The translations under genes were made by a program, and so were the position numbers. A DNA stretch of 64,000 nt. Origin: a virus (Duplodnaviria; Heunggongvirae; Uroviricota; Caudoviricetes). The stretch lies in IMG/VR virus record IMGVR_UViG_3300042400_000444. One strand, written 5' to 3'. How positions within the stretch are numbered: position 1 is the stretch's first letter; every line of letters begins with the position of its first letter. The notes under the pieces were generated by a model. The model saw nothing but the letters and a program-made list of their open reading frames with translations. It did not search any database and was not told the DNA's origin. Shown one piece after another: positions 8,818 through 25,642 of this stretch.

Positions 8818-10020
8818 GTGTCAACCGTTATTAACATTGTACCCGACAATTTATCAAACAGAGACTATTACTGTTCGATGAAGTTTCGTATGCTGAAAGT
8901 GGATATCGAATCGGGTACTACTTATAATTGTCATGCGGCAACTCCTCATAAAATTGATTTTAATTGGTTACGTGCTCATCCAGGACAATTATTTAATTCG
9001 GAAATTAATATAACTGAACGTCGTATGATGTTAGAAAATCAACGTAATGCTAGTTGTGAACAAAATTGTTGGCCTGCTGAGGATATAAGTGCAATCAGTC
9101 CTCGGCTTTTGCAAGAAGGCACTAAAAAAACTCATACTGAAATAATAGCATCTCCTGAAATTTTAGATTTAACTATAGGTTCTAATTGTAATTTATCATG
9201 TTCATATTGCTGTAAAGAATTTAGTAGTTCGTGGCGTAATGATATTTTACAAAATGGCGATTATTTATTAACTGATGATAATAAACGATACAGTGTGAAT
9301 TCGACAGACAGAATTCTAAACAAACTTAGTTATAATAAAATTCATAATAGTAAATCAATACAATACTTGTACAATGAAATAACTTTATGGAGTGCAGATC
9401 TTAAACAACTTGTAATTACCGGTGGTGAACCATTTCTAGATAATACTTTATTAGATATCATTGACTCAGCCAAGTCAATTCCGATAATAGAAATTTATAC
9501 AGGACTAGGAGTCAATCCTTCGAGGTTTGCTCGAATACTAAAACAATTATCATTATTTAAAAATATCATATTAATTATAAGTGCCGAGGGAATAATGCAA
9601 TTTTTGGAATTTAATCGGTATGGGATTGACTGGGAAGAATTTAAACAAAAAATAGTTCAACTTGAAAATTCTGGAATTGACTTTAAATTTCAATCTACTA
9701 TTACTAATTTAACATTATTTGGATTTGCTGACTTTTATAAATATTTTAATCAACACCGAATCGAATTAAATTTTGCTTATCAACCCAACATGATGGCACC
9801 GTATGTACTTGATCCGGCAAGTAAACAAATAATTTTAGATACACTCCAAAAAATATTGCCAGAATCGGAATTTAAAAAAATACAAATGTCGATTAATCAA
9901 ACTCCAACTAACTTGCAGAGAATTAATATAAAAGAATTTTTAACGGAATTTACAAGACGTAGACCGGATATCAGCACAGATATCTTTCCAAAGTCATTTA
10001 TAAATTGGATCAATGAATAA
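8818..10020 (+). CDS. radical SAM enzyme (paralogue A)
   Basis: CNLSCSYC is a CxxxCxxC motif. GGEPFL glycine-rich SAM motif. N-terminal C..K..CH motif shared with the ORF at 24302. GTG start immediately after the upstream stop. Confidence 0.8.
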   Translation: MSTVINIVPDNLSNRDYYCSMKFRMLKVDIESGTTYNCHAATPHKIDFNWLRAHPGQLFNSEINITERRMMLENQRNASCEQNCWPAEDISAISPRLLQEGTKKTHTEIIASPEILDLTIGSNCNLSCSYCCKEFSSSWRNDILQNGDYLLTDDNKRYSVNSTDRILNKLSYNKIHNSKSIQYLYNEITLWSADLKQLVITGGEPFLDNTLLDIIDSAKSIPIIEIYTGLGVNPSRFARILKQLSLFKNIILIISAEGIMQFLEFNRYGIDWEEFKQKIVQLENSGIDFKFQSTITNLTLFGFADFYKYFNQHRIELNFAYQPNMMAPYVLDPASKQIILDTLQKILPESEFKKIQMSINQTPTNLQRINIKEFLTEFTRRRPDISTDIFPKSFINWINE

Positions 10021-10475
10021 TGTGGTATAACAAAGTAGTACAAAATATTGGCACGTTACCTGACTTTATTGACTTCTATAGCAACGAATTGGATCAAGCA
10101 AAACGTGAAGTTAAGGTATACGGCAATATTGAAAAAGGGCTAGCATCATTGCCCGGAGTTACAGAGCAACGGTTCAATCAGTTACAGGAGATTGAAGCAG
10201 TATTGAACTTTCTCAACATCAAACTTCGCAAAATCCGCCAAGACCACTACAAAAAGTATCTCGAAAGCTACGCACGTGCGTTAACTTCTCGCGATGCTGA
10301 AAAGTATGTCGATGGTGAAAGCGAAGTAATTGATATGGAAACTATTATCAACGAAGTCGCACTATTGCGCAACAAGTGGCTTGGCATCATGAAAGGGCTA
10401 GAAGCAAAATCATACATGATCGGACATATTGTTAGACTGCGTACAGCAGGAATGGAAGATGCAACAGTCAATTAA
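10020..10475 (+). CDS. uvsY: UvsY-like recombination mediator
   Basis: 151 aa. The C-terminal NKWLGIMKGLEAKSYMIGHIVRLR resembles T4 UvsY LQYWGILLDFCSGALDAIKSRGFAIKHIQDMR. Confidence 0.45.
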   Translation: MWYNKVVQNIGTLPDFIDFYSNELDQAKREVKVYGNIEKGLASLPGVTEQRFNQLQEIEAVLNFLNIKLRKIRQDHYKKYLESYARALTSRDAEKYVDGESEVIDMETIINEVALLRNKWLGIMKGLEAKSYMIGHIVRLRTAGMEDATVN

Positions 10476-10725
10476 TCCAGTAGACGAATTATTAGAGCAA
10501 TGGGAAGAAATGAAATATTGTTCCTCTCATATTACTCCAACAGATGACATCGACATATTAGATTATATGCGTCGCAAAGGGCAACTTATGGCATATTCAC
10601 AAGAATTGCGCTATGCAAGGTTGCAGAATAATACAGAAGTTGAAGCAGAGTATACAACAAAATTTATAGAAGCATACACTAACTTCAGCAGAGACTTTAT
10701 TTTTAGGATTTTAAAAAATGGCTAG
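10429..10725 (+). CDS. hypothetical protein (start uncertain, possibly ATG at 10459)
   Basis: ORF overlaps the end of uvsY. Confidence 0.3.
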   Translation: MLDCVQQEWKMQQSINPVDELLEQWEEMKYCSSHITPTDDIDILDYMRRKGQLMAYSQELRYARLQNNTEVEAEYTTKFIEAYTNFSRDFIFRILKNG

Positions 10726-11614
10726 ACATGCACTTAGGGTATTAAATCAACTCAGAGAATACGATAGTTTTCTTGACAGTTTACACACAATTGTAGACAT
10801 GGGTTGCGGAACCGGCGAAGACATTACGTGGTGGGCAACATTAGAAACACGTGATGACCCACCAGTACCACACAATTATAATTGTTTTGCTGTTGATCGC
10901 GACCCTGCTAAACTAGATCAAGTGCCTGATCTTAAAAATATACACAAAACTAAACAAGATTTTAATACACGTTGCATACCCGTACAAGCTGATTTAATGT
11001 GGGCACATGATAGTTTACAGTATAGCACTAACCCAATCGAAACATTAAAAGTATGGAATGAGCAAATGAATGTTGATGCTATGCTAGTATTGAGCATACC
11101 GCAACATTCCGGAGTTGCAGACAATAGGTACTATAGTCGTACACATAGCGGATGTTTTCATAACTTTACTCCGACTAGTTTAATTTATATGCTTGCAGTA
11201 AATGGATTTGATTGTAAAGATGCATATATGCTTAAAGAATTTAATGATCCGTGGATTCATATTGCTGTATACAAATCAGATGTTGCACCGAAAGATGCAG
11301 ATACAACGTCGTGGCTTGATTTAATTGATAGTGGATTATTGAATCAGACTGTAATCAATTCAATTACTTCATATGGTTATTTGCGCCAAGAGGATATTTT
11401 ATATCCATGGTTAGATAAAGAGAACTATTTTATTGATTATGTAAGCCAACAGACAGTAATTCCTGCAGAAGCTGTACACAATGATGCTGGTGTAGTTAAT
11501 ACTAAAAAACAAGCCAAAAAATCTACAGTAAAGCAAGCGAAACCAACAAGGGTAGAAACTACAATAGCAAAACCGGTTGGTGTAATGCGTCCACCTAAGA
11601 AAAACTATGATTAA
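10718..11614 (+). CDS. class I SAM-dependent methyltransferase
   Basis: VDMGCGTGED motif I. Confidence 0.6.
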   Translation: MARHALRVLNQLREYDSFLDSLHTIVDMGCGTGEDITWWATLETRDDPPVPHNYNCFAVDRDPAKLDQVPDLKNIHKTKQDFNTRCIPVQADLMWAHDSLQYSTNPIETLKVWNEQMNVDAMLVLSIPQHSGVADNRYYSRTHSGCFHNFTPTSLIYMLAVNGFDCKDAYMLKEFNDPWIHIAVYKSDVAPKDADTTSWLDLIDSGLLNQTVINSITSYGYLRQEDILYPWLDKENYFIDYVSQQTVIPAEAVHNDAGVVNTKKQAKKSTVKQAKPTRVETTIAKPVGVMRPPKKNYD

Positions 11615-12371
11615 TAAAGTTGTACTTGTGACCGGCGGGTTTGACCCGCTTCATTCCGGGCATATAGAATATTTCAAAGCTGCTAAAGCACTTGGCAAGA
11701 TACTTGTTGTTGGTGTGAATAGTGATGCCTGGGTAGCTCGCAAGAAGGGCAGAGCATTTATGCCATCTACTGAACGTATTGCTATTATTGAAAACTTAAA
11801 GATGGTTGATCATTGCATATTGTTTAATGATAATGATAACACAGCCATTGAGGCAATTAATAACGTAAAACTAATGTACCCTAACAGTCAAATTATATTT
11901 GCCAACGGTGGCGACAGAACAGCTAATAATATTCCAGAAATGATAGTCAATGATATAGTATTTAAATTTGGCATCGGCGGCGGTAATAAGCTCAACAGTA
12001 GCAGTTGGATATTAGATGAGTGGAAAGCACCTAAAACTGACCGAGAATGGGGCTATTATCGTGTATTACATGACGTTCCGGGCCTAAAAGTGAAAGAATT
12101 AACCATTGATCCGGGCAAGCGCCTAAGTATGCAGAAACATTACAATAGATCTGAATTATGGTTTATTGCAGATGGTGAGGCAACGGTTAGTGAATATAGC
12201 ATTGTTTATCCAACTGCTCTACAAAATCCACATCTACCTAAACATTCGACCCATCGCATACCAGAAGAACAATGGCATCAACTTGCTAACCCATACGACA
12301 GACCCGTTCGCATAATTGAAATACAATATGGCGATATCTGTGTTGAGGATGACATAGAACGTAAAGCATAA
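11607..12371 (+). CDS. cytidylyltransferase-family nucleotidyltransferase fused to a cupin domain
   Basis: GGFDPLHSGH (HxGH nucleotidyltransferase motif, TagD/RfaE-II family). C-terminal cupin-like segment LSMQKHYNRSELWFIADGEA. Confidence 0.6.
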   Translation: MINKVVLVTGGFDPLHSGHIEYFKAAKALGKILVVGVNSDAWVARKKGRAFMPSTERIAIIENLKMVDHCILFNDNDNTAIEAINNVKLMYPNSQIIFANGGDRTANNIPEMIVNDIVFKFGIGGGNKLNSSSWILDEWKAPKTDREWGYYRVLHDVPGLKVKELTIDPGKRLSMQKHYNRSELWFIADGEATVSEYSIVYPTALQNPHLPKHSTHRIPEEQWHQLANPYDRPVRIIEIQYGDICVEDDIERKA

Positions 12372-14014: not shown

Positions 14015-14089
14015 GGGCCTGTAGCTTAATGGTAAAGCGGAGAACTCATAATTCTAGGAGTGCTAGTTCAATTCTAGCCAGGCCCACCA
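14015..14089 (+). tRNA. tRNA-Met/Ile2 (anticodon CAT)
   Basis: 7-bp acceptor GGGCCTG/CAGGCCC, D-arm GCTT..AAGC, anticodon loop CTCATAA, T-loop TTCAATT, encoded CCA. Confidence 0.75.
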
Positions 14090-14098
14090 AACAACACT

Positions 14099-14173
14099 AC
14101 CCCGGTGGTCCAAGGAATGGGCACCGTTCTTCTAAAGCGGCTTATATTGGTTTGAATCCAATCCGGGGTACCA
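14099..14173 (+). tRNA. tRNA-Arg (anticodon TCT)
   Basis: Acceptor ACCCCGG/CCGGGGT, anticodon loop CTTCTAA, T-arm ATTGG-TTTGAAT-CCAAT, CCA. Confidence 0.7.
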
Positions 14174-14196
14174 ATATTTAAATATAAGGAAATATA

Positions 14197-14397
14197 ATGT
14201 CAGATTTAAATGAATATGATTATGAACAAGCAATGGCAGAATTTTTAGCTAACGGTGGCGAAGTAAAACAAATCGCCCGTGGCGTACAAAGTGAAACAGC
14301 AACAACAAACTTCTGGGGTGCACCAAAGAAAAAAGCCGCAGTAGAAGCAGTAAGTGAACTGGGCGATACTGCTGGAATTGACATAAACGATGTTTAG
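14197..14397 (+). CDS. hypothetical small protein
   Basis: 66-aa ORF with RBS AAGGAAATATAATG. Confidence 0.35.
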   Translation: MSDLNEYDYEQAMAEFLANGGEVKQIARGVQSETATTNFWGAPKKKAAVEAVSELGDTAGIDINDV

Positions 14398-15124
14398 CTT
14401 TTTTAAAAAGAAACTAATATTGGTCGGCAGTCGTCATAACTTGTCGGATATCAGCGTAATTGCGACAATGAATAATTATAAGATTGTTGGAATATTAGAT
14501 AAACATTATTGGGGCAATACTCCGGAGATTTGTGGTATTCCTGTGATAGGGTCTGAAGAGGAATTACTAGTACCTAATAATAAATGGGCAAAGTGTAATT
14601 TCTTTCCAGCAAATTGGTGGGATGGTAAACAAGCACGTGGACAAGAGTTTGATGCAGATGCACTTAGACGAGACCGATTGGAGTTACTCGACAAGTCTGG
14701 AGTCAATGTAGTGAATTTAATATCGAAAGAAGTGCATTGGTTTCATAATAAATCAAATTTAGTAATGGGTAAGGGAATATTAATTTTAAGTAATTCTAGC
14801 ATAGGCGAGAATATAACTATAGGCGACTACAGTGTAATTGATTGGGACGTTCGAATAAACAATACTGAGATTGGCCGTAATAGTATTGTTGGTACAGGAA
14901 GTTTATTGGCGCATGTTAAGGTTGGTGATAATGTTCGTATAGGTGCTAGGTGTACATTGATACCTAGTAGAAAAAAAGACTTGCTCACGATAGGAAATAA
15001 TGCTATTATATATCTTGTTAGTTTAGTATTAGATGACGTTGCAGAGAATGGAATTTATACAATGCACGGTAAAACTAGACAAAGATTCAAAAAATCACCG
15101 GATATAACACCGGTTCAAAAATAA
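14390..15124 (+). CDS. hexapeptide-repeat (left-handed beta-helix) acetyltransferase, NeuD/PglD-like
   Basis: C-terminal [IV]G..x repeats (IGENITIGDYSVIDWDVRINNTEIGRNSIVG...VKVGDNVRIGARCTL). N-terminal Rossmann-like region. Confidence 0.6.
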   Translation: MFSFFKKKLILVGSRHNLSDISVIATMNNYKIVGILDKHYWGNTPEICGIPVIGSEEELLVPNNKWAKCNFFPANWWDGKQARGQEFDADALRRDRLELLDKSGVNVVNLISKEVHWFHNKSNLVMGKGILILSNSSIGENITIGDYSVIDWDVRINNTEIGRNSIVGTGSLLAHVKVGDNVRIGARCTLIPSRKKDLLTIGNNAIIYLVSLVLDDVAENGIYTMHGKTRQRFKKSPDITPVQK

Positions 15125-15149
15125 AAGATAAATAATTAGATAAAGTGCT

Positions 15150-15178
15150 TGACAAAGATATAAATAGAATATATAATA
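15150..15178 (+). promoter_or_regulatory. sigma70-type promoter
   Basis: TTGACA-N17-TATAAT (cttgacaaagatataaatagaatatataat). Confidence 0.5.
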
Positions 15179-15378
15179 GCAGCATAGTAAGAAATTAATT
15201 AAAGGATACGAACGCAAAATGTTTAAAACGTGTAATCAATTTAAGAAATCACCGGTGCAGATACTTGCCACGATGTCTTATTGGTCAGCGATTGAGACAT
15301 TAGGCAGTAATGATCGTACACCGCATAATGAGGGTTTAAGTTAACGTTTATTTTTATATCATAAATGAATTTTTACTT

Positions 15379-15849: not shown

Positions 15850-15851
15850 TT

Positions 15852-19020: not shown

Positions 19021-19106
19021 GCTGTCGCGGTGCAGTAGGAGAGGCACGCTGGTCTGTAAAATCAGTCCCACTGGGTGAATAGGTTCGATTCCTATAGGCA
19101 GCACCA
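19021..19106 (+). tRNA. tRNA-Tyr (anticodon GTA), type II
   Basis: Acceptor GCTGTCG/AGGCAGC (6/7 pairs). Anticodon arm CTGGT-CTGTAAA-ATCAG. Long variable arm TCCCACTGGGTGA. T-arm ATAGG-TTCGATT-CCTAT. CCA. Confidence 0.65.
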
Positions 19107-19466
19107 AGAATTTGCAGAGCGCGGTGCTAGTCTAGCCTCGAGGCATAATCCAAGTTAGTTGCAACTAGCAACAGATTGTGAAAACTAGACAACAAGGTTC
19201 GATTCCTTACTGCATCTTATTTTATGTCGCAGTTCCAGTTACACTAATCTCTCAGTTAAAAGCTGTTAGTGTGTAAAGGATACGAGAAAGTCAACTTCTT
19301 CTGGGTAGACTGTGACGCCAAACACGAGGAGTGTTCACCTCTATAAAAACGAGCCAATATTTTTACACTAAAGGAAAAACAGTTATGAAGGTAACTAAAC
19401 TTTAGTGTCGTCTTTAATCCCATGTATGATTAAGGATAGGCACGTTAAACATCTTTATACATATAT

Positions 19467-19541
19467 GGGGGTATAATTCAATGGCTAGAATATCCGGCTT
19501 TTACCCGGACTATCAGAGTTCAAATCTCTGTGCCCTCACCA
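19467..19541 (+). tRNA. tRNA-Lys (anticodon TTT)
   Basis: Acceptor GGGGGTA/TGCCCTC with G-U pairs, anticodon arm TCCGG-CTTTTAC-CCGGA, T-arm CAGAG-TTCAAAT-CTCTG, CCA. Confidence 0.7.
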
Positions 19542-19655
19542 TAAGAAAGTATATTACTGACGCCTCAGAGAAGAGTTCCGGTAGCTCAGTATCGATTAAT
19601 AACTAAGTCAGCAGTTGGGTTCGCTGAATGTAGTGTACTTCCTTATGGTATCAAT

Positions 19656-19732
19656 GGTGACCGTAGCTCAGTTGGTAGAGTCCAGGATTGTGATTCCTGT
19701 TGTCGTGGGTTCGAGCCCCATCGGTCACCCCA
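19656..19732 (+). tRNA. tRNA-His (anticodon GTG) with extra 5' G(-1)
   Basis: G+GTGACCG/CGGTCAC, D-arm GCTC-AGTTGGTA-GAGT, anticodon arm CAGGA-TTGTGAT-TCCTG, CCA. Confidence 0.75.
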
Positions 19733-19790
19733 AGTTTTAATATGGCTTCCGTCCGTAGAATACTGCTTGCAGTCGGCTCGGAAGTTCTTT

Positions 19791-19868
19791 GGCACTTTAG
19801 CATAGCTGGCTTAATGCGCTACCCTGTCACGGTAGAGATCACGGATTCGAATTCCGTAAGTGTCGCCA
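19791..19868 (+). tRNA. tRNA-Asp (anticodon GTC)
   Basis: Acceptor GGCACTT/AAGTGTC, anticodon arm CTACC-CTGTCAC-GGTAG, T-arm ACGGA-TTCGAAT-TCCGT, CCA. Confidence 0.75.
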
Positions 19869-19874
19869 ACTTAT

Positions 19875-19948
19875 TCCGGTGTAGTATAATGGCAGTGCGA
19901 CGGTCTCCAAAACCGTTAGTGGGGGTTCGATTCCCTCCACCGGAGCCA
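19875..19948 (+). tRNA. tRNA-Trp (anticodon CCA)
   Basis: Acceptor TCCGGTG/CACCGGA, anticodon arm ACGGT-CTCCAAA-ACCGT, T-loop TTCGATT, CCA. Confidence 0.7.
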
Positions 19949-19962
19949 GTTTCAAATAGTGG

Positions 19963-19991
19963 TTGACAGCAAATATCAAAAATGCTACACT
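19963..19991 (+). promoter_or_regulatory. sigma70-type promoter inside the tRNA island
   Basis: TTGACA-N17-TACACT. Confidence 0.5.
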
Positions 19992-20021
19992 ATATAGATA
20001 GTAACAAATAAGTAAATGGAA

Positions 20022-20074
20022 GAAAGCCGTAACAATATGTATTCGAGGTTAGGAGAGTACGGCAAACCGTCCAA
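20022..20074 (+). ncRNA. conserved 52-nt structured element, copy 1 (second copy at 23301)
   Basis: GAAAGCcGTAACAaTATGTATTCGAGGTTAGGAGAGTACgGCAAACCG. The GCCGTA/TACGGC stem covaries with GCTGTA/TACAGC in copy 2. Could alternatively encode a 14-15-aa peptide MYSRLGEY(G/S)KP. Confidence 0.4.
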
Positions 20075-20168
20075 GGGTAGCTGATGCCTGTGGTGCAACT
20101 CCACCGTTGAAATCAGTCATGATTCTGCACATGATAACAGGCCTGTATTTGGCCGCAGAACTTTTATC

Positions 20169-20242
20169 GCGGTGGTGGGCTAATTGGCAAGCCGTAGGGC
20201 TCATAACCCTGAGACGAGGTTCGAATCCTCCGACCGCAACCA
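20169..20242 (+). tRNA. tRNA with CAT anticodon (Met/Ile2 class), slightly non-canonical
   Basis: D-arm GGCT-AATTGGCA-AGCC, anticodon arm TAGGG-CTCATAA-CCCTG, T-loop TTCGAAT. Acceptor GCGGTGG/CGACCGC has one G-G mismatch. 3' ACCA. Confidence 0.5.
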
Positions 20243-20260
20243 AATACACAGGGGAATAAC

Positions 20261-20428
20261 ATGGCAATTAAAAAAGCAAACTCAATGACTACACGTACAG
20301 GCAAACCTAGACTAGGTCCACTGAATTTAACCCAACTAAATACATTGTTGGATAAAACTAGCAAAGGTAAAGATAAAGCAAAACTCCGTAATAGAATTGC
20401 TGTATTGGAATCACGCTTAGTTAAATAA
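20261..20428 (+). CDS. small basic protein (55 aa)
   Basis: RBS CAGGGGAATAACATG. K/R-rich. Confidence 0.35.
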   Translation: MAIKKANSMTTRTGKPRLGPLNLTQLNTLLDKTSKGKDKAKLRNRIAVLESRLVK

Positions 20429-20434
20429 GTTTTT

Positions 20435-20519
20435 GCCGGGTTGCGCCGAATGGGATGGCACCTGACTTGTAATCAGGCTTCGTAAGATAGAGAGTGTTCG
20501 ATTCACTCACCCGGCACCA
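20435..20519 (+). tRNA. type-II-architecture tRNA (long variable arm, 3-bp D-stem) with apparent TGT (Thr) anticodon
   Basis: Acceptor GCCGGGT/ACCCGGC perfect. Anticodon arm CCTGA-CTTGTAA-TCAGG. Variable arm CTTCGTAAGATAGA. T-arm GAGTG-TTCGATT-CACTC. CCA. 85 nt. Confidence 0.55.
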
Positions 20520-20524
20520 GTAAT

Positions 20525-20599
20525 GCCCAGTTAGCAGAGTGGTAATGCGCCTCACTTGTAATGAGGATATCGGCGGTTCGATTCCGTCACTGGGCACCA
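20525..20599 (+). tRNA. tRNA-Thr (anticodon TGT)
   Basis: Acceptor GCCCAGT/ACTGGGC, anticodon arm CCTCA-CTTGTAA-TGAGG, T-arm GGCGG-TTCGATT-CCGTC, CCA. Confidence 0.7.
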
Positions 20600-20607
20600 A
20601 GTATTAA

Positions 20608-20692
20608 GCCTCTTTGGTGGAATTGGTATACACGTTGGTCTTAGAAGCCAATGCTGAAAGGCTTGAGAGTTCGAGTCTCTCAGGGGGCACCA
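20608..20692 (+). tRNA. tRNA-Leu (anticodon TAG), type II
   Basis: Acceptor GCCTCTT/AGGGGGC (G-U pairs), anticodon loop CTTAGAA, long variable arm, T-arm GAGAG-TTCGAGT-CTCTC, CCA. Confidence 0.65.
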
Positions 20693-20749
20693 AAAAATTT
20701 TATAGAGTAAAGTCTGATCGGTAAATACCCGTACAACGGAGATAAATTT

Positions 20750-21493
20750 ATGTTTGAATGGTATTGGGCGTTTGTATTCGGGTATATAGTACATACTATA
20801 ACAGTAATTGTAGTTTCAATTTTCCTGCATCGAATGTATGCACATAAGCACTTGTTATCCACGCCGGCATTTGATACAATGAGTCGAATTTGGTTATGGA
20901 TGGTAGGCGCATATTGGCCTAAAATTGCAAGAATATTTGCAGCAGTGCATAGAAAGCACCATGCTATGCCGGACACACTAGATGATCCACATACACCATG
21001 GATATATTCATGCCGTGAATTATTATTTCCTACGACAGACAGGGAAAAAGGCAAAGCATATTACATGCCGCCTGAAGAAAGAGATAGTATTGCAGGTGAT
21101 GTACCGGCATTCGATGATAAGTTGGATATATTCTTAATGAAGTATCTACCATACAGTAAGATACCATTGGTATTAGTATTCTTAACGTTATTTTCATGGC
21201 AAGGTGCTATAATTGGGTTTGTGTGGTTAACTATATCTCGGTACAGCGGAAGATTACATAATTGCGTATCGCACAAATATGGATATAGATGGCAACCAGC
21301 AAAAACAGAAGGTGACCGTTCAGTAAACTGCTTACCGATTGGGTTAGTATTCGGCGGTGAGGAATTAGGAGCCAATCATCATGATTATCCAGATTTGGTT
21401 AACTTTGCAATTAAGTGGTACGAATTTGATACAGGGTGGTATGTTGTTAAAGTATTAGAATTTTTTAAATTAGTAAAAATTGTTAAATCTTAA
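20750..21493 (+). CDS. membrane fatty-acid desaturase (stearoyl-CoA desaturase-like), paralogue 1
   Basis: His boxes HRMYAH, HRKHH(AMPD), NHHDYP. Hydrophobic N-terminal segments. Confidence 0.65.
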   Translation: MFEWYWAFVFGYIVHTITVIVVSIFLHRMYAHKHLLSTPAFDTMSRIWLWMVGAYWPKIARIFAAVHRKHHAMPDTLDDPHTPWIYSCRELLFPTTDREKGKAYYMPPEERDSIAGDVPAFDDKLDIFLMKYLPYSKIPLVLVFLTLFSWQGAIIGFVWLTISRYSGRLHNCVSHKYGYRWQPAKTEGDRSVNCLPIGLVFGGEELGANHHDYPDLVNFAIKWYEFDTGWYVVKVLEFFKLVKIVKS

Positions 21494-21638
21494 AGAAAAA
21501 ATTGCGAGTATGGTGGAATTGGTATACACAGTAAATGGTTGGAAATACCAATGGGTCAGCAAATAAAGGTAAACCCAAAAGTGAAGAGCATAAGAAAAAG
21601 ATTGCTGAATCAATAAAACAAAAATATGCTACAAGAAA

Positions 21639-21723
21639 TGCTCCGATGGCGTAATTGGTAGCCGCAATGGACTTAAAATTCATTATCGAAAGGTGTCCCG
21701 GTTCGACTCCGGGTCGGAGCACC
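21639..21723 (+). tRNA. tRNA-Leu (anticodon TAA), type II
   Basis: Acceptor GCTCCGA/TCGGAGC, anticodon arm ATGGA-CTTAAAA-TTCAT, long variable arm, T-arm CCCGG-TTCGACT-CCGGG, CCA. Confidence 0.7.
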
Positions 21724-21823
21724 AGAGTTTAGTTGCACAGTAAAAACACGAGTGATGGTGTGCGGGTTCAAATCCCGGTGGGGAGGTAAAAGCTCCCGGC
21801 TGCACTCAGACTAACAGTTTTAA

Positions 21824-21897
21824 AGCGGGATTAGTTTAATGGCAAAACTGGAGTTTTCCAAACTTCTGTCATCAGTTCGATTCTGATATCCCGCTCC
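21824..21897 (+). tRNA. tRNA-Gly (anticodon TCC)
   Basis: Acceptor GCGGGAT/ATCCCGC, D-arm GTTT-AATGGCA-AAAC, anticodon loop TTTCCAA, T-arm ATCAG-TTCGATT-CTGAT, CCA. Confidence 0.75.
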
Positions 21898-22173
21898 AAA
21901 CACTAGCTTTACACTTTGCGCTTTATCGAAAGTGGGTAATTGGCAATACCATAGCGCCAGGGCACACACGATGGTCTAGACCATGCCACAAGTCCCATTG
22001 CCGGGAGCCTTGAAAGTATCGTGGGTTATTTGTTGTTATATCCAAAAGATAACAGCTGGACAGGGTAACTACTCAGTTCTGGGCTAGGTGGTGCTAGTAG
22101 CAGAACACTTTACACTACAGCAATGTAGACGAACAGTATATATTATAGATTTACAAATTAGATAAGAAGTAAA

Positions 22174-22249
22174 TGGGGGTGTAGCTCATTTGGGAGAGCG
22201 CCTGCTTTGCAAGCAGGATGTAGCAAGTTCGATCCTTGTCACCTCCACC
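22174..22249 (+). tRNA. tRNA-Ala (anticodon TGC)
   Basis: Acceptor GGGGGTG/CACCTCC with G3-U70, D-arm GCTC-ATTTGGGA-GAGC, anticodon arm CCTGC-TTTGCAA-GCAGG, CCA. Confidence 0.75.
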
Positions 22250-22255
22250 ATATTA

Positions 22256-22331
22256 TAGGAGATTAGCTCATTTGGTAGAGCAGTGCCCTTACAAGGCAAA
22301 GGCGACTGGATCGTAACCAGTATCTCCTACC
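22256..22331 (+). tRNA. tRNA-Val (anticodon TAC), unusual T-loop ATCGTAA
   Basis: Acceptor AGGAGAT/ATCTCCT, D-arm GCTC-ATTTGGTA-GAGC, anticodon loop CTTACAA, T-arm ACTGG-ATCGTAA-CCAGT, CCA. Confidence 0.6.
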
Positions 22332-22345
22332 AGTTTTAAGTTTTA

Positions 22346-22424
22346 TTCCGCAGAATCCGAGCTAGGCGCACGGACTTGACTGTTAATCAATGATTAGCTG
22401 GGTTCGAATCCCAGATGCGGAGCC
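22346..22424 (+). tRNA. tRNA-Asn (anticodon GTT)
   Basis: Acceptor TCCGCAG/ATGCGGA (6/7), D-stem TCCG/CGGA, anticodon loop CTGTTAA, T-arm CTGGG-TTCGAAT-CCCAG, CCA. Confidence 0.6.
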
Positions 22425-22482
22425 AATATTATTTGGTAGAGCAATAGACTGAGCTAAATAAACATATAACGGAGTTATTGAT

Positions 22483-23106
22483 ATGTTTACTTGTGTGTAT
22501 TGTTCTAAAGTATGTAAAAATGATAATAGTCATCGAAATCATGAAAGACAATGTCCTAAAAATCTTAACAGGATTTATAAAAATGGAATGACTGGTAAAA
22601 CGGCATGGAACAAAGGACTTACAGTTGCTACTGATGAACGAGTGGCTAAAAATGCTATAGCAATTAAAGCAAATGCTAAAGAAATTGGTAAATGTAAAGA
22701 TCCAGAGAAGGAAGTATTACGTAGACAAAAATTGTCAATCGCTGCAAAAAGAAGCGGATTTGGCGGATACAGAGAAAACGCAGGACGCAGTAAAAAATTT
22801 AGAGTGTTAGATTCTTACGGTAAAGAAACAGTTTTACAAAGCACATATGAATTAAAGTGTAGTGAAATATTAAATGAGTTGGGCATTGAATGGATTCGAC
22901 CCAAAGCATTAAAATATGATAATAAAAATTATTTTGCGGACTTTTACTTACCTAAGATAGATATGTATCTTGATCCTAAGAATAGTTATAAAGCAAGATT
23001 AGATTTAGAAAAAATAAACAAAGTTATAGAACAAAATAATGTTAAAGTTGTAATCTTATTAGAAGAACACCTAACATTAGAACATATTAAACAGCTCTGT
23101 AGTTAA
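22483..23106 (+). CDS. putative homing-endonuclease-like protein (zinc finger plus NUMOD-like segment)
   Basis: N-terminal CVYCSKVCKNDNSHRNHERQC zinc finger. GKTAWNKGLT is NUMOD3-like. AT-rich gene inside the tRNA island. Its 3' end overlaps the start of tRNA-Ile. Confidence 0.4.
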   Translation: MFTCVYCSKVCKNDNSHRNHERQCPKNLNRIYKNGMTGKTAWNKGLTVATDERVAKNAIAIKANAKEIGKCKDPEKEVLRRQKLSIAAKRSGFGGYRENAGRSKKFRVLDSYGKETVLQSTYELKCSEILNELGIEWIRPKALKYDNKNYFADFYLPKIDMYLDPKNSYKARLDLEKINKVIEQNNVKVVILLEEHLTLEHIKQLCS

Positions 23107-23166
23107 ATGGTATAACGGACGCTTGATAAGCGTTTATTACAAGTTCAATTCTTGTCAGAGCTACCA
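23093..23166 (+). tRNA. tRNA-Ile (anticodon GAT)
   Basis: Acceptor AGCTCTG/CAGAGCT, D-arm GTTA-AATGGTA-TAAC, anticodon arm GACGC-TTGATAA-GCGTT, T-arm ACAAG-TTCAATT-CTTGT, CCA. First 14 nt lie inside the upstream CDS. Confidence 0.7.
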
Positions 23167-23300
23167 AGTATTCCAACCGCATCACGTTTAGGGTGAAGTA
23201 GGGCGTGTTAACAAAACCCTGTAAGATCAAAAATACCTATCAAGGCAAGGAGGAATCACAGCGCAAGCTGAAGACGACTGCGGTGACTTGCTAAAAGGGA

Positions 23301-23353
23301 GAAAGCTGTAACATTATGTATTCGAGGTTAGGAGAGTACAGCAAACCGCCCAA
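23301..23353 (+). ncRNA. conserved 52-nt structured element, copy 2
   Basis: GAAAGCtGTAACAtTATGTATTCGAGGTTAGGAGAGTACaGCAAACCG. Compensatory C>T/G>A relative to copy 1 preserves the 6-bp stem. Confidence 0.4.
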
Positions 23354-23476
23354 CTCATAATACACCAGACCTCAACCTCGCAAGAGACAATTCTGGTTCC
23401 GCTGACGCGAAAAGAGGATGGGCTGCGCTCACGGGGTTTGTTAGGTTCCTGTCACATGAATACCTAACACTTATTT

Positions 23477-23564
23477 GGAGGATTGGCTGAGTGGTTTAAG
23501 GCAGCAGTCTTGAAAACTGTCGAGCTGAAAGGCTCCGTGAGTTCGAATCCCACATCCTCCGCCA
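23477..23564 (+). tRNA. tRNA-Ser (anticodon TGA), type II
   Basis: Acceptor GGAGGAT/ATCCTCC, anticodon arm GCAGT-CTTGAAA-ACTGT, variable arm CGAGC-TGAAAG-GCTCCG, CCA. Confidence 0.65.
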
Positions 23565-23569
23565 AATAC

Positions 23570-23598
23570 TTGACAACGTTCTAAAACGGTGTTATAAT
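23570..23598 (+). promoter_or_regulatory. sigma70-type promoter
   Basis: TTGACA-N17-TATAAT. Confidence 0.55.
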
Positions 23599-23618
23599 AG
23601 TTTTATAGTAAGAAATTA

Positions 23619-23712
23619 GGAGAGCTGGCCGAGTGGTCGAAGGCACTTCCCTGCTAAGGAAGCATACGGGCTTAACCCTGTATCGAGGGTTCGAATCTCA
23701 CCGCTTCCGCCA
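23619..23712 (+). tRNA. tRNA-Ser(GCT)-like with non-pairing acceptor stem (possible pseudogene)
   Basis: D-arm and anticodon arm CTTCC-CTGCTAA-GGAAG, long variable arm, T-loop TTCGAAT. The 5' end GGAGAGC does not pair with the 3' end CGCTTCC. Ends GCCA. Confidence 0.35.
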
Positions 23713-23730
23713 ATTTTATTAAGGACTGAT

Positions 23731-24147
23731 ATGTTGCGCACTGTGGTATTATCGTTGGCACTTTTGTTTACAATTACAGCACATGCTGAAGATTGGGCAG
23801 TAGTAACTGATTCGGGTGATGGAGTACGTTTAATTGCTGATGTTGAATCAGTAAAGGTTAAAGAATACAAAAAAGGTACTAAAAAAGGTACAGGTATATT
23901 TGTCAATATGCAATATGTAAACACCGACCTTATATTTGTATCTGCTATTGATGTTGAAGAATGCTTATTAAAGCAACGTGGCACATTAATTAATGCTTAC
24001 CCAAGCGGTGAATCCAATACATACTTTTGGGACATTAGCGGTGGCAAGATGTATGATGCACAAGGGCAATGGTTATGCGGTGCTGTATATGGCATACTTA
24101 AAAATAATAAAAAACAACCAAAACCTAAACCTAAAGTAACAATGTAA
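23731..24147 (+). CDS. secreted hypothetical protein (signal peptide)
   Basis: N-terminal MLRTVVLSLALLFTITAHA signal. 138 aa. KPKPK C-terminal tail. Confidence 0.45.
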   Translation: MLRTVVLSLALLFTITAHAEDWAVVTDSGDGVRLIADVESVKVKEYKKGTKKGTGIFVNMQYVNTDLIFVSAIDVEECLLKQRGTLINAYPSGESNTYFWDISGGKMYDAQGQWLCGAVYGILKNNKKQPKPKPKVTM

Positions 24148-24157
24148 TATAGCATTC

Positions 24158-24247
24158 GGAGAGTGGGCCGGACGGTAAGGCACCACCCTGCTAAGGTGTA
24201 CAACTCTTTAAACAGTTGACAGGGTTCGACTCCCTGACTCTCCGCCA
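24158..24247 (+). tRNA. tRNA-Ser (anticodon GCT), type II
   Basis: Acceptor GGAGAGT/ACTCTCC perfect, anticodon loop CTGCTAA, variable arm CAACT...AGTTG, T-arm AGGG-TTCGACT-CCCT, CCA. Confidence 0.7.
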
Positions 24248-24301
24248 TAAAATTGAGGATAACTAACCCTCAACTAAGTATGTATAATACACGAGAATTT
24301 A

Positions 24302-25642
24302 ATGAACGATAATAAAAAAATATGGCCTATTAAATCAGAGACATCGTGCTATTTAAAATGGTCATGGAGCACTATTTTCCTCACTAAAGGTACCACAGCC
24401 AGTTGTCATCGAACTGTACATTCAGATATTGATATTAATAATTTTAATAATTTTCATAATACTCCAAAAAAATTAGATGATCGAAAGCGTATGCTAGCTG
24501 GCAACTGGCCGGAAGAGAGCGAGTCTGATAAATTTGGAATTCCTGGATGTACTTATTGTAAAGATATAGAAGATCATGGTGGCACAAGTGATCGTACAGT
24601 GCAATTACGTCATCTCGAAGCAATGAGTGCAACACAAAATAATATATTGCCCGTAGAATTATTAACAGATCCAACAGCAACGGAAGTAACTCCTACAATA
24701 ATTGAAGTTTATTTTAATAATGTGTGCAACATGGCTTGTTTGTACTGCGGCCCTCATTTTAGTACTATGTGGGAAGAAGAAAATCGGAGATTTGGCATTA
24801 CAGAAGACGACGGTATATTAAATACACCGTTATGGAAACGTAATCCTACTCAATATAGTACGTTGCGTGATGGACTATTTACTTGGTTACGTGAACACGG
24901 AGATAAGATTTGGAACTTCGGTATGTTAGGTGGCGAACCTTTCTTCCAACAAGAATTTGACATGGTATTAGATCATTGGGAAAATTATCCTAATCCAAAT
25001 TTACTATTAACTATAGTTAGTAATTTAAAAATAGAACATACTCGATTTGTTGGTTACATTCAACGATTAAAACGTATGGTAGAAACTGGTAAGATTAAAA
25101 AATTAAATCTTAGTGCTAGTTTAGATTGTTGGGGACCCCCAGCAGAATATATTAGATGGGGATTAAATCTAATAGAGTGGGAGAAGAATTTTAATTATCT
25201 AGCACAAGCGGGGTTCGATGAATGGATTGTTTTGAATGTCAATATTACCATCACTCCATTAAGCATAAGGACATTGCCGGACTTGATTTATAAATTAAAC
25301 GAATTGGATAAACTTAGAGACCCAACACGTCATATTTGTATTAGTTTTATGCACGTTAATTCGCCGACACAACTAAACCCATTATGGTTTGGTGCTGGTG
25401 TATTTACAGAAGATATGATTAAGGTAGTGGATGCAATGCCGACAGGAACACAATACCAGCGTGATTATAAAGAATATATGCAAGGTATTGCTAACAGTAT
25501 AGAACAGACTCCACGAAATCCTGCCGCTATTCTTATGTTAGAAACATATCTAAATGAAATGGACCAGCGCAGGGGAACACATTGGCCAGAATTATTTCCG
25601 TGGCTAGTGAGACAATTTGAGTTAGCCCATTCGGAAATATAA
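24302..25642 (+). CDS. radical SAM enzyme (paralogue B)
   Basis: CNMACLYC is a CxxxCxxC motif. GGEPFF. N-terminal SCYLKW...ASCH motif shared with the ORF at 8818. 446 aa. Confidence 0.8.
   Translation: MNDNKKIWPIKSETSCYLKWSWSTIFLTKGTTASCHRTVHSDIDINNFNNFHNTPKKLDDRKRMLAGNWPEESESDKFGIPGCTYCKDIEDHGGTSDRTVQLRHLEAMSATQNNILPVELLTDPTATEVTPTIIEVYFNNVCNMACLYCGPHFSTMWEEENRRFGITEDDGILNTPLWKRNPTQYSTLRDGLFTWLREHGDKIWNFGMLGGEPFFQQEFDMVLDHWENYPNPNLLLTIVSNLKIEHTRFVGYIQRLKRMVETGKIKKLNLSASLDCWGPPAEYIRWGLNLIEWEKNFNYLAQAGFDEWIVLNVNITITPLSIRTLPDLIYKLNELDKLRDPTRHICISFMHVNSPTQLNPLWFGAGVFTEDMIKVVDAMPTGTQYQRDYKEYMQGIANSIEQTPRNPAAILMLETYLNEMDQRRGTHWPELFPWLVRQFELAHSEI

What the first reader, a model, noticed from the sequence alone, without database searches (positions are those of the whole stretch)
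8818..25642. Two paralogous radical-SAM enzymes with a shared N-terminal Cys/His motif, one followed by a 34-aa membrane peptide
ORFs 8818-10020 and 24302-25642 both carry CxxxCxxC (CNLSCSYC / CNMACLYC) and GGEPF(L/F). Upstream they share a conserved C-x2-K-[FW]-x(10-14)-G-T-T-x2-C-H segment (YYCSMKF...GTTYNCH versus SCYLKW...GTTASCH), suggesting an extra metal site. Neither has a SPASM-type Cys-rich C-terminus. Paralogue B is immediately followed (31 bp) by a well-initiated 34-aa hydrophobic peptide ORF (25673-25777). Family and substrate (nucleic acid, sugar nucleotide, peptide) cannot be assigned from sequence, and duplicated radical-SAMs of this type are not a standard T4-like feature.
Basis: partly seen in the sequence, partly recalled or inferred. 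Interest (0 to 1): 0.7.

Follow-up and report, generated by a model that had tools for sequence, protein, structure and literature searches.

The report
Phage radical-SAM enzymes with N-terminal twitch
Two distantly related iron-sulfur "radical SAM" enzymes in a giant-phage genome belong to a catalogued but never-studied family that has multiplied greatly in uncultured large phages and probably tailors sugars; the small peptide gene next to one of them appears unrelated.

Summary

The family has about 2,900 50%-identity clusters at E<=1e-30. It is strongly expanded in uncultured jumbo and T4-like phages, with up to 8 copies per 21 kb.

A is inserted into a conserved SSB-UvsX-c2-[rSAM]-UvsY block. 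In 24 of 90 related loci a B-type enzyme fills that slot. The 34-aa ORF occurs only in contigs identical to the window, and the closest relative has a tRNA in its place.

Neighbouring genes are a nucleotidyltransferase-cupin, methyltransferases and acetyltransferases. Relatives add carbamoyltransferase, UDP-sugar dehydrogenase and glycosyltransferases, including a natural GT-rSAM fusion and bacterial glycan loci. Together these point to sugar or glycan tailoring, but that assignment is inferred. Verdict: new members of a known, uncharacterised family.

The parts
8818..10020 (+). Radical SAM paralogue A (400 aa), the A-type member of the N-terminal-twitch family. It is inserted between the small acidic core protein c2 and UvsY.
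   Evidence: ORF and translation. NF033640 171.7 bits against a cutoff of 170. Pfam Radical_SAM 30.8 bits against 29.5. AF2 mean pLDDT 88. 666 homologues.
8818..9147 (+). N-terminal SPASM/twitch-like domain of A (about residues 1-110) with Cys19, Cys38, Cys80 and Cys84.
   Evidence: C38, C80 and C84 are invariant and C19 is at least 90% conserved in 42 homologues. hhalign to N-termini of phage paralogues whose members hit Pfam SPASM: probability 95.6%, E 1.2e-8. The AF2 model has a beta-hairpin (25-29, 34-36) between C19 and C38.
9187..9210 (+). CxxxCxxC radical-SAM cluster motif of A (C124, C128, C131). C132 is also nearly invariant.
24302..25642 (+). Radical SAM paralogue B (446 aa), the B-type member of the same family. 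It lies inside the tRNA gene array.
   Evidence: ORF and translation. NF033640 198.7 bits against a cutoff of 170. AF2 mean pLDDT 86.9. 1034 homologues. tRNAs on both sides.
24302..24676 (+). N-terminal SPASM/twitch-like domain of B (about residues 1-125) with Cys16, Cys35, Cys83 and Cys86.
   Evidence: All four Cys are invariant in 43 homologues. hhalign to the N-termini of SPASM-positive paralogues: 94.6%, E 6.8e-8. hhalign to the N-terminus of A: 97.1%, E 6.3e-11. Beta-hairpin 22-26/31-33 between C16 and C35; helix starting at C83.
24725..24748 (+). CxxxCxxC radical-SAM cluster motif of B (C142, C146, C149).
25674..25778 (+). 34-aa hydrophobic ORF after B. It may be a real small membrane protein, but there is no evidence that it belongs with B.
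   Evidence: Translation and GGAG 5 nt upstream. Called as a gene by JGI on an identical contig. Found only in identical contigs L003 and L004 and in no other locus. Absent in the 75%-identical relative L006, where tRNA-Trp starts 5 bp after B. 4 of 252 short ATG-ORFs in the window are equally hydrophobic.
7242..8357 (+). UvsX/RecA-like recombinase, the upstream border of the conserved block that holds A.
   Evidence: Pfam RecA 63 bits. 63-68% identical to UvsX of GAP32/CBB/Atu_ph07/Phosso-type jumbo phages.
8585..8815 (+). Small acidic protein c2 (76 aa) immediately upstream of A. It is a core gene, not an rSAM partner.
   Evidence: Present in 84 loci. Also lies between UvsX and UvsY in phage Phosso, which has no rSAM (hmmsearch E 6.5e-14).
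10020..10475 (+). UvsY-like recombination mediator immediately downstream of A (its start overlaps the stop of A).
   Evidence: phrog_231 E 5.4e-15. 87 loci. Phosso homologue E 2.6e-56.
10718..11614 (+). SAM-dependent methyltransferase. Candidate member of the sugar-tailoring gene set (inferred).
   Evidence: Pfam Methyltransf_23/31/12, all three below Pfam's curated cutoffs. Cluster c16 occurs in 16 of 51 loci downstream of the slot rSAM.
11607..12371 (+). Fusion of a cytidylyl/adenylyltransferase-like domain (RfaE domain II-like) and a mannose-6-P-isomerase-type cupin. Candidate sugar-phosphate activating enzyme (inferred).
   Evidence: Pfam CTP_transf_like 51.9 bits and MannoseP_isomer 74.5 bits. 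TIGR02199 rfaE_dom_II E 1.8e-22, below its cutoff. Cluster c7 occurs in 37 of 51 loci downstream of the slot rSAM.
14390..15124 (+). NeuD/PglB/VioB-type hexapeptide sugar N-acetyltransferase-like protein (inferred to belong to the same sugar gene set).
   Evidence: Pfam Hexapep. TIGR03570 E 4.4e-18, below its cutoff.

Best explanation
A and B are two deeply diverged paralogues of the 'N-terminal twitch' radical-SAM family (NCBIfam NF033640), carried by an uncultured jumbo phage of the Rak2/GAP32/Atu_ph07-like supergroup.

Each protein has three parts:
- an N-terminal domain of about 110-125 residues, homologous to SPASM/twitch, whose four conserved Cys should ligate an auxiliary [4Fe-4S] cluster;
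- a (beta/alpha)6 radical-SAM core, whose CxxxCxxC cluster cleaves SAM to the 5'-deoxyadenosyl radical;
- a family-specific C-terminal helical domain ending in a conserved D-R-R-R...F-P...W motif.

Inferred mechanism: the 5'-dA radical abstracts an H atom from a substrate held between the core and the N-terminal domain. The auxiliary cluster then anchors the substrate or takes the electron from the substrate radical. The net result would be an oxidation, epimerisation, decarboxylation, dehydration or crosslink, as in BtrN, BlsE, AprD4 and anSME.

The most likely substrate class is a sugar, nucleotide-sugar or glycan intermediate made by accessory genes of the phage. These are the nucleotidyltransferase-cupin, methyltransferases, a NeuD-type acetyltransferase and a dehydratase/epimerase. 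Relatives add carbamoyltransferase, UDP-sugar dehydrogenase and glycosyltransferases.

A occupies an insertion slot in the conserved SSB-UvsX-c2-[ ]-UvsY block. B is a second copy that in this lineage landed in the tRNA array. The 34-aa ORF is a lineage-specific neighbour, not a partner.

Shown: family membership, paralogy, conserved Cys sets, fold and genomic distribution. Inferred: cluster binding, chemistry and substrate. My probabilities are about 0.9 for the family and two-cluster architecture and about 0.4 for a sugar or glycan substrate.
For: Family and architecture
- NF033640 scores are 171.7 (A) and 198.7 (B) against a cutoff of 170, over nearly the full model.
- A against B gives E 9e-18.
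- The four N-terminal Cys and the three core Cys are conserved in 42-43 homologues each, and across three subfamilies.
- Pfam SPASM (PF13186) matches residues 6-81, N-terminal to the Radical_SAM match, in four phage paralogues of the same BLAST cluster. The N-termini of A and B align to such paralogue N-termini at 95.6% and 94.6% hhalign probability.
- AF2 models are confident: pLDDT 87-88, with a beta-hairpin between Cys1 and Cys2 and six core strands.

Distribution
- There are 1034 and 666 metagenomic homologues, many on contigs of about 340 kb.
- 363 family members occur in 172 loci. Of these, 350 have at least 4 Cys before the CxxxCxxC motif. Up to 8 copies occur per 21 kb.
- 2,912 representatives of 50%-identity clusters match at E<=1e-30.

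The slot
- UvsX-c2-rSAM-UvsY is found in 90 loci, 66 with an A-type and 24 with a B-type enzyme.
- The cultured relatives Vibrio phage 2.275.O and Phosso have UvsX-(c2)-UvsY with no rSAM.

Sugar link
- The nucleotidyltransferase-cupin lies within 5 genes downstream in 37 of 51 loci. Methyltransferase occurs in 16 of 51, and a GT8-like cluster (weak Pfam hit) in 20 of 51.
- Carbamoyltransferase sits directly upstream of many B-type genes, and lies three genes downstream of the RsoM2USA homologue.
- The natural fusion P0415 combines Glyco_transf_7C with an N_Twi rSAM and is flanked by another GT and a UDPG/GDP-Man dehydrogenase.
- On a 1.87-Mb, presumably bacterial, contig the family member sits next to UDPG dehydrogenase, GT2, AsnB and GT1.
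- The Bacteriovorax copy is translationally coupled to a GT1.
- The marine phage locus L176 has an rSAM array next to a UDPG dehydrogenase.
Against: - No member of the family has been characterised. No paper was found, and there is no sequence-detectable relative in the PDB. The chemistry is therefore extrapolated from other SPASM/twitch enzymes.
- A and B do not themselves reach Pfam's SPASM threshold.
- The immediate neighbours of A (c2, UvsY) are recombination genes. The sugar genes lie beyond UvsY, so the linkage is by proximity only.
- B has no sugar gene nearby in this window.
- Other fusions in the family point elsewhere: a subtilisin-like domain, a GNAT-like domain and repeated ECExH motifs (judged by eye).
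- The Bacteriovorax locus also has an M16 peptidase, a SPASM rSAM and an ABC exporter, a set that would also fit a peptide product.
- UDPG dehydrogenase occurs in only 2 of the loci fetched up to that point.
- Most recurrent neighbour families have no annotation at all.
Confidence: 0.45

Rival explanations
1. The enzymes modify a protein or peptide, either a RiPP-like product or a post-translational modification of a phage or host protein, as most SPASM/twitch radical-SAM enzymes do. The substrate is encoded elsewhere, not by the 34-aa ORF.
For: - Some family members are fused to a subtilisin-like domain, or to 5-6 repeats of an ECExH[ST]xx[FY] motif that could be an in-cis substrate (by eye).
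- The Bacteriovorax locus carries an M16 peptidase, a SPASM rSAM and an ABC exporter.
- The window encodes a large S8 subtilase at 29046-31481.
- L176 places an rSAM array after tail-fibre genes.
Against: - No Pfam or NCBIfam hit to a peptide-recognition (RRE/PqqD) domain was seen in A or B.
- No conserved small ORF accompanies the genes in about 170 loci. The only conserved small neighbour, c2, is also present in a phage without the rSAM.
- The GT fusion and the sugar-gene neighbourhoods fit a glycan better.
Confidence: 0.2
2. B is the maturase of the adjacent 34-aa hydrophobic peptide, forming a two-gene RiPP or membrane-peptide cassette.
For: The ORF starts 31 nt after B and has a GGAG Shine-Dalgarno sequence 5 nt upstream. 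JGI's gene caller called it on an identical contig. It contains one Cys. No terminator-like site lies between B and the ORF.
Against: - tblastn finds the peptide only in contigs identical to the window and in none of the other loci.
- The 75%-identical orthologue in syntenic L006 is followed 5 bp later by tRNA-Trp.
- The 66%-identical orthologue in L005 overlaps the next rSAM gene.
- The peptide is a plain transmembrane-like helix with no leader/core layout.
- Four equally hydrophobic short ORFs occur in the window, in various frames.
Confidence: 0.03
3. The enzymes act on nucleic acid. B would modify the phage tRNAs among which it lies. A, and the B-type copies found in recombination-gene slots, would modify or repair DNA.
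For: - B sits within a 27-tRNA array, 55 nt after tRNA-Ser.
- The orthologues in L006/L012 and a 42-43% identical lineage (L048, L057, L060) are also 5-42 nt from tRNAs.
- A-type or B-type copies lie between UvsX and UvsY in 90 loci, and between or next to the gp47-like and gp46-like (Mre11/Rad50-type) genes in 8 loci.
- JGI labels A a wyosine (TYW1-type) synthetase.
Against: - Only 10 of 92 B-type and 0 of 87 A-type genes are within 2 kb of a tRNA.
- The 66%-identical orthologue in L005 lies in a locus with no tRNA genes at all.
- The UvsX-c2-UvsY block exists intact without the rSAM in cultured relatives, so the slot looks like an insertion site rather than an operon.
- No nucleic-acid-binding domain was detected.
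- The cellular homologues examined lie next to glycosyltransferase and sugar genes.
Confidence: 0.12
4. They are ordinary housekeeping radical-SAM enzymes with a known phage distribution (NrdG, QueE, MoaA or viperin-like).
For: There are weak partial HMM matches: NrdG2 E 5.9e-6, MoaA E 3.5e-6, prokaryotic viperin E 8e-6, and PHROG 'QueE-like' E 0.0056.
Against: - All these scores are far below the curated cutoffs: 25.8 against 131, 26.2 against 284, 25.2 against 180, and 14.6 against 260. They also cover only the generic core.
- The proteins are 400-446 aa with extra N- and C-terminal domains.
Confidence: 0.01

Closest known systems
NCBIfam NF033640 (N_Twi_rSAM, 'twitch domain-containing radical SAM protein')
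   Same: Both proteins pass the curated cutoff over nearly the whole model. They share the architecture of an N-terminal Cys domain, a CxxxCxxC core and a C-terminal helical domain. Homologues found through a relative carry this product name in NCBI annotations of Bacteriovorax genomes.
   Different: The family is only a sequence model with a generic name. No function, structure or publication was found. A is borderline (171.7 against 170) and represents a phage-specific subfamily only about 21% identical to B.
Canonical SPASM/twitch radical-SAM enzymes (BtrN, anSME, SkfB, MoaA, BlsE, PqqE)
Sugar- and nucleoside-tailoring radical-SAM enzymes (BlsE decarboxylase, BtrN dehydrogenase, AprD4 dehydratase, DesII)
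Radical-SAM gene sets in T4-like environmental viral genomes (Nishimura et al. 2017, PMC5332604)
   Same: That paper reports a 183-kb T4-like marine viral genome with 12 radical-SAM genes. This is the same kind of multi-copy phenomenon seen here in relatives of the window.
   Different: The paper treats them only as Fe-S-related auxiliary genes. It does not define the family, the domain order or the contexts. I could not check whether those 12 genes are N_Twi members.

Membership tests
Radical SAM superfamily | CxxxCxxC motif ligating the SAM-binding [4Fe-4S] cluster | tested here: met
   A has C124/C128/C131 and B has C142/C146/C149. These are invariant in the family alignments.
Radical SAM superfamily | Match to the Pfam PF04055 model at the gathering score | tested here: inconclusive
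   A scores 30.8 bits against a cutoff of 29.5 (met). B scores 17.9 bits, E 0.0038 (below the cutoff).
Radical SAM superfamily | Partial (beta/alpha)6 TIM-barrel core and GGE SAM-binding motif | tested here: met
Radical SAM superfamily | Reductive cleavage of SAM to 5'-deoxyadenosine | not testable with these tools
   Needs anaerobic biochemistry.
NCBIfam NF033640 N_Twi_rSAM | Whole-protein HMM score at or above the curated cutoff (170 bits) with near full-length coverage | tested here: met
   A scores 171.7 bits (residues 17-373 on model positions 3-374 of 398). B scores 198.7 bits (12-435 on 1-394).
NCBIfam NF033640 N_Twi_rSAM | Twitch/SPASM-like four-Cys domain located N-terminal to the radical-SAM core | tested here: met
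   The four Cys are conserved. hhalign of the A and B N-termini to paralogue N-termini that hit PF13186 SPASM at residues 6-81 gives 95.6% and 94.6%. The beta-hairpin between Cys1 and Cys2 appears in the AF2 models. Caveat: A and B themselves give no PF13186 hit, even at E<=10.
NCBIfam NF033640 N_Twi_rSAM | Auxiliary Fe-S cluster actually bound by the N-terminal Cys | not testable with these tools
Needs iron/sulfide analysis, EPR or Mossbauer spectroscopy.
Canonical SPASM/twitch subfamily (C-terminal auxiliary domain) | Cys-rich SPASM or twitch domain C-terminal to the core | tested here: not met
   A has no Cys after residue 132. B has only C276 and C346, which are not conserved. There is no C-terminal PF13186 match.
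NrdG / PFL-activase, QueE, MoaA, prokaryotic viperin | Equivalog HMM score above the curated cutoff | tested here: not met
   NrdG2 25.8 against 131.15. QueE 14.6 against 260.1. MoaA 26.2 against 284.05. Viperin 25.2 against 180.
RiPP maturase with cognate precursor | Conserved precursor-peptide gene next to the maturase across relatives | tested here: not met
   The 34-aa ORF occurs only in identical contigs and is replaced by a tRNA in L006. No other conserved small ORF is specific to the rSAM.
RiPP maturase with cognate precursor | Peptide-recognition (RRE/PqqD-like) domain | tested here: inconclusive
   No such Pfam or NCBIfam hit was found in A or B. Divergent RREs are often missed by HMMs, and no structural test was made.

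The most novel reading that the evidence does not exclude
The N-terminal-twitch radical-SAM enzymes are a phage-expanded toolbox. With up to 8 paralogues in a row, flanked by carbamoyl-, methyl-, acetyl- and glycosyl-transferases, they would carry out a series of radical tailoring steps on an unusual sugar. That sugar would end up on the virion, on the host envelope or on phage DNA. This would be new radical carbohydrate chemistry from an enzyme family with a permuted SPASM/twitch architecture that nobody has studied. The interchange of A-type and B-type enzymes in the same genomic slot would then reflect diversification of the product under host-defence or receptor pressure.
Probability: 0.2. 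Interest if true: 0.8.

Novelty: new member of a known kind. Interest (0 to 1): 0.45.

Why it matters
The family is large: about 2,900 clusters at 50% identity match at E<=1e-30. It is curated by name in NCBIfam, yet it has no characterised member, no structure and no literature that I could find. It is also the only radical-SAM group I know of in which the SPASM/twitch auxiliary domain precedes the core.

Its strong amplification in uncultured jumbo and T4-like phages, together with its neighbours, gives enzymologists a concrete and tractable target set. Ralstonia phage RsoM2USA is a cultivable carrier. For phage biologists it hints that large aquatic phages invest heavily in radical (Fe-S, SAM-dependent) tailoring chemistry, probably of glycans.

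For this window specifically, the result is more ordinary. It holds two members of that family, with no special link to the neighbouring peptide ORF.

Tried and rejected
1. Peptide-partner idea. tblastn of the 34-aa peptide against all loci then held found it only in identical contigs. Rejected.

2. c2 (76 aa, upstream of A) and the 150-aa downstream protein as rSAM partners. The latter is UvsY, and both occur in phage Phosso without any rSAM. Rejected.

3. The 207-aa ORF at 22483-23106 as the counterpart of the 207/208-aa protein that precedes B in L005 and L006. There is no similarity beyond the coincidence of length.

4. Sequence and profile searches of the PDB found nothing.

6. The AlphaFold-database fold library was not available.

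7. The scan of bacterial genomes returned a single short MAG contig, because the patterns used were too specific. The plasmid collection gave no match.

8. My first hhalign test of the N-terminal domain against 'C-terminal Cys-rich' tails was invalid, because that set was heterogeneous. I replaced it with the Pfam coordinate test and a second hhalign.

9. Profiles of the unannotated neighbour clusters c6 and c3 against the PDB gave nothing for c6 and only a weak WbbB-like hit (E 0.04) for c3.

10. Promoter and terminator scans gave counts equal to shuffled controls.

11. Literature searches for the family name, or for an N-terminal SPASM/twitch domain, found no relevant paper.

12. I could not retrieve the 192,793-bp source contig with its precomputed annotations.

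Full report
**Observation.** A is 8818-10020 (+, GTG start, 400 aa) and B is 24302-25642 (+, 446 aa).
- Both carry CxxxCxxC (CNLSCSYC and CNMACLYC) and GGEPF.
- Both carry the shared N-terminal C-x2-K-[FW]...G-T-T-x2-C-H segment.
- A and B align over almost their whole length, with 21% identity and E 9e-18. Their N-terminal domains alone give hhalign probability 97% (E 6e-11). The resemblance is therefore homology, not chance.
- The His of 'CH' is not invariant family-wide.
- A has no Cys after residue 132. B has only two, and neither is conserved. There is therefore no C-terminal SPASM domain.
It has a 31-nt gap after B and GGAG 5 nt upstream of the ATG.
- The GTG start of A is supported by the conserved residues upstream of Met25. 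Public gene calls from Met25 remove Cys19.

**Family.** Both proteins pass the curated cutoff (170 bits) of NCBIfam NF033640, 'twitch domain-containing radical SAM protein' (N_Twi_rSAM). A scores 171.7 and B 198.7, over nearly the full model.
- Housekeeping families are excluded: NrdG2 25.8 against 131, QueE 14.6 against 260, MoaA 26.2 against 284, viperin 25.2 against 180.
- Pfam sees only the generic Radical_SAM domain, and for B even that is below threshold.
- The name 'N-terminal twitch' is borne out by a direct test. In four phage paralogues from the same BLAST cluster as A and B, Pfam's SPASM model (PF13186) matches residues 6-81, ahead of the Radical_SAM match.
- The N-termini of A and B align to N-termini of such paralogues with 95.6% and 94.6% probability, Cys for Cys.
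- AlphaFold models are confident (pLDDT 88 and 87). They show the expected Cys, beta-hairpin, Cys, helix, CxxC-helix layout, then six core strands and a C-terminal helical bundle.
- No solved structure is detectable by sequence, even with a profile.
- I found no paper on the family or on an N-terminal SPASM/twitch arrangement.

**The phage.** The window holds TerL, an HNH endonuclease, a gp32-like SSB, UvsX, UvsY, UvsW, primase and a DnaB-type helicase. It also holds 27 tRNA genes between 14015 and 28974.
- Its UvsX is 63-68% identical to those of the GAP32, CBB, Atu_ph07, Phosso and Vibrio 2.275.O jumbo phages.
- No deposited phage is close at the DNA level.
- The proteins occur on a 192,793-bp metagenomic contig.

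**Distribution.** Among about 50,700 deposited phage records, only Ralstonia jumbo phage RsoM2USA has homologues. It has two, both annotated as hypothetical.
- In metagenomes the picture is the opposite. There are 1034 and 666 homologues, many on contigs of about 340 kb.
- I fetched 160 IMG/VR loci and clustered all ORFs. One BLAST cluster holds 363 family members in 172 loci.
- Of those 363, 350 have at least four Cys before the CxxxCxxC motif.
- Loci of 21 kb carry up to 8 copies, with a mean of 3.6 for loci of at least 20 kb.
- A profile of three subfamilies finds 2,912 50%-identity cluster representatives at E<=1e-30. These include tandem double and triple fusions.
- A 2017 paper had already noted a 183-kb T4-like marine viral genome with 12 radical-SAM genes, without analysing them (PMC5332604).
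- The window itself has only A and B from this family. It also has an unrelated B12-binding radical-SAM enzyme at 16123-18192.

**Context of A.** A lies in a tightly packed + strand run: SSB, UvsX, a 76-aa ORF, c2 (76 aa), A, UvsY, methyltransferase, nucleotidyltransferase-cupin, and a 433-aa unknown protein.
- The protein after A is a UvsY-like mediator (phrog_231, E 5e-15).
- The arrangement UvsX-c2-[rSAM]-UvsY recurs in 90 loci.
- Cultured relatives have the block without the rSAM. Vibrio phage 2.275.O has UvsX-UvsY, and Phosso has UvsX-c2-UvsY. The rSAM is therefore an insertion into a core block, and c2 and UvsY are not its partners.
- In 24 of the 90 loci the slot holds a B-type enzyme, 41-44% identical to B and scoring only about 60-80 bits against A. 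In the other 66 it holds an A-type enzyme. The two subfamilies replace each other at one position.
- Beyond UvsY, relatives carry the nucleotidyltransferase-cupin (37 of 51 loci), multi-copy c3 proteins (33 of 51; weak similarity to the beta-Kdo transferase WbbB, E 0.04), a GT8-like cluster (20 of 51) and a methyltransferase (16 of 51).
- In the window the same region adds a NeuD/PglB-type acetyltransferase at 14390-15124. Further on there is a GDP-mannose-dehydratase-type enzyme at 34843-35898.

**Context of B and the peptide.** B sits 55 nt after a tRNA-Ser gene. After the 34-aa ORF comes a tRNA-like element that ARAGORN missed (Rfam 32.8 bits, 25791-25867).
- The syntenic relative L006 (75% identity) also has B inside its tRNA array, but tRNA-Trp starts 5 bp after the stop codon and there is no peptide ORF.
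- In L005 (66% identity) B lies in a locus without tRNA genes and is followed by three more family members.
- The peptide has no homologue outside contigs identical to the window.
- Equally hydrophobic short ORFs occur four times in the window.
- Only 10 of 92 B-type genes and 0 of 87 A-type genes lie within 2 kb of a tRNA.
- I conclude that the peptide is not a partner. The tRNA location is a lineage-specific landing site, although a tRNA-related role is not excluded.
- Other B-type genes sit directly after a NodU/TobZ-type carbamoyltransferase in at least 15 loci. The same enzyme lies three genes downstream of one RsoM2USA copy. B-type genes also occur between or next to gp47-like and gp46-like genes.

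**Cellular members and fusions.** Homologues of a Bacteriovoracaceae MAG protein include proteins that NCBI names 'twitch domain-containing radical SAM protein' in Bacteriovorax.
- On a 49-kb contig holding the Bacteriovorax copy, the gene follows a SPASM rSAM and overlaps a GT1 glycosyltransferase. An ABC exporter, a GT4 and an M16 peptidase are nearby.
- On a 1.87-Mb contig it precedes UDP-glucose/GDP-mannose dehydrogenase, GT2, AsnB and GT1.
- On a third contig it lies near an ABC exporter, an epimerase/dehydratase fusion and a methyltransferase.
- An abundant marine phage has an array of these enzymes after tail-fibre genes and next to a UDPG dehydrogenase.
- One representative, P0415, is a natural fusion of a Glyco_transf_7C glycosyltransferase domain with an N_Twi rSAM. 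It is flanked by another GT and a UDPG dehydrogenase.
- Other fusions point elsewhere: a subtilisin-like domain, a GNAT-like domain, and repeats of ECExH[ST]xx[FY] (judged by eye).

**Interpretation.**
- Shown: A and B are diverged paralogues of a catalogued, uncharacterised radical-SAM family. The family has a permuted (N-terminal) SPASM/twitch-like four-Cys domain and is greatly expanded in uncultured large phages.
- Inferred: each protein binds two [4Fe-4S] clusters. The SAM-derived radical abstracts an H atom, and the auxiliary cluster anchors the substrate or oxidises the substrate radical, as in BtrN, BlsE, AprD4 and anSME.
- The substrate is not known. The recurring sugar-nucleotide, carbamoyl-, methyl-, acetyl- and glycosyl-transferase neighbours, the GT fusion and the glycosyltransferase- and sugar-gene-rich neighbourhoods of the cellular copies make a sugar or glycan the best single guess, at about 0.4.
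- A protein or peptide substrate (about 0.2) and a nucleic-acid substrate (about 0.12) remain open.
- The peptide-cassette reading (about 0.03) and the housekeeping reading (about 0.01) are essentially excluded.

**Verdict.** The 'extra metal site' is supported and sharpened. 'No family assignable' and the peptide link are not supported. The proteins are new members of a known but unstudied kind. Interest is moderate: this window is an ordinary instance, but the family behind it is a large, unexplored and experimentally approachable group of phage enzymes.

Noticed in passing
window 16123-18192 (-): A third, unrelated radical-SAM gene of 689 aa with a B12-binding domain plus a radical-SAM core. 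Its best NCBIfam matches (lipid B12-rSAM, RiPP C-methyltransferase, PhpK) are all far below their cutoffs. A 56%-identical homologue lies in the syntenic locus L006, in the opposite orientation relative to B.
   Followed up: partly
window 25791-25867 and 18400-18511 (+): Two tRNA-like elements that ARAGORN did not call but that Rfam's tRNA model scores just above its gathering score (32.8 and 29.8 bits against 29). The first starts a few bases after the 34-aa ORF and appears to have a TAT anticodon loop and an insertion. The relative L006 has a 91-nt tRNA-Ile(tat).
   Followed up: partly
window 14015-28974: An array of 27 tRNA genes, all on the + strand, interspersed with accessory ORFs: the B12-rSAM, a desaturase-like protein, a zinc-finger 207-aa ORF, B and a dual-specificity-phosphatase-like protein. 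The syntenic relative L006 also has 27 tRNAs in a different order.
   Followed up: partly
window 20750-21493 and 39644-40378 (+): Two fatty-acid-desaturase-like ORFs (Pfam FA_desaturase; DesA-family NCBIfam score 146 against a cutoff of 400). This is unusual cargo for a phage. The window also carries an outer-membrane beta-barrel protein (33451-34035), an SPFH/Band 7 protein (43810-44598) and an S8 subtilase (29046-31481).
   Followed up: no
window 8585-8815 (+): A small acidic 76-aa protein (cluster c2) is conserved between UvsX and UvsY in 84 loci, and also in Sinorhizobium phage Phosso. It is an unannotated core gene of the recombination block in this jumbo-phage group.
   Followed up: partly
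window 3196-3843 (+): An HNH plus NUMOD3 homing-endonuclease-like ORF lies between the large terminase gene and the following 712-aa ORF.
   Followed up: no
window 8818-10020; public gene calls P0121 and P0506: Public annotations start A at internal codons, giving 376 and 380 aa. At least the 376-aa call loses the conserved Cys19. JGI names the protein a wyosine (TYW1) synthetase, which neither the HMM nor the fold results support.
   Followed up: yes
P0407, P0399, P0376, P0433 (family representatives): Some family members carry N-terminal extensions. Two have 5-6 repeats of an ECExH[ST]xx[FY][VI] motif, one has a subtilisin-like domain and one a GNAT-like domain (all judged by eye). The repeat fusions could be in-cis substrates and deserve a proper look.
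   Followed up: no
L005, L015, L018, L020-L041 (IMG/VR and JGI loci): Radical-SAM 'islands' occur in phage genomes of about 300-350 kb. They hold 5-8 family paralogues within 21 kb, interleaved with a carbamoyltransferase and with unannotated multi-copy clusters (c6 at about 380 aa, c13, c20). DNA polymerase B or an aminotransferase/amidoligase is sometimes nearby.
   Followed up: partly
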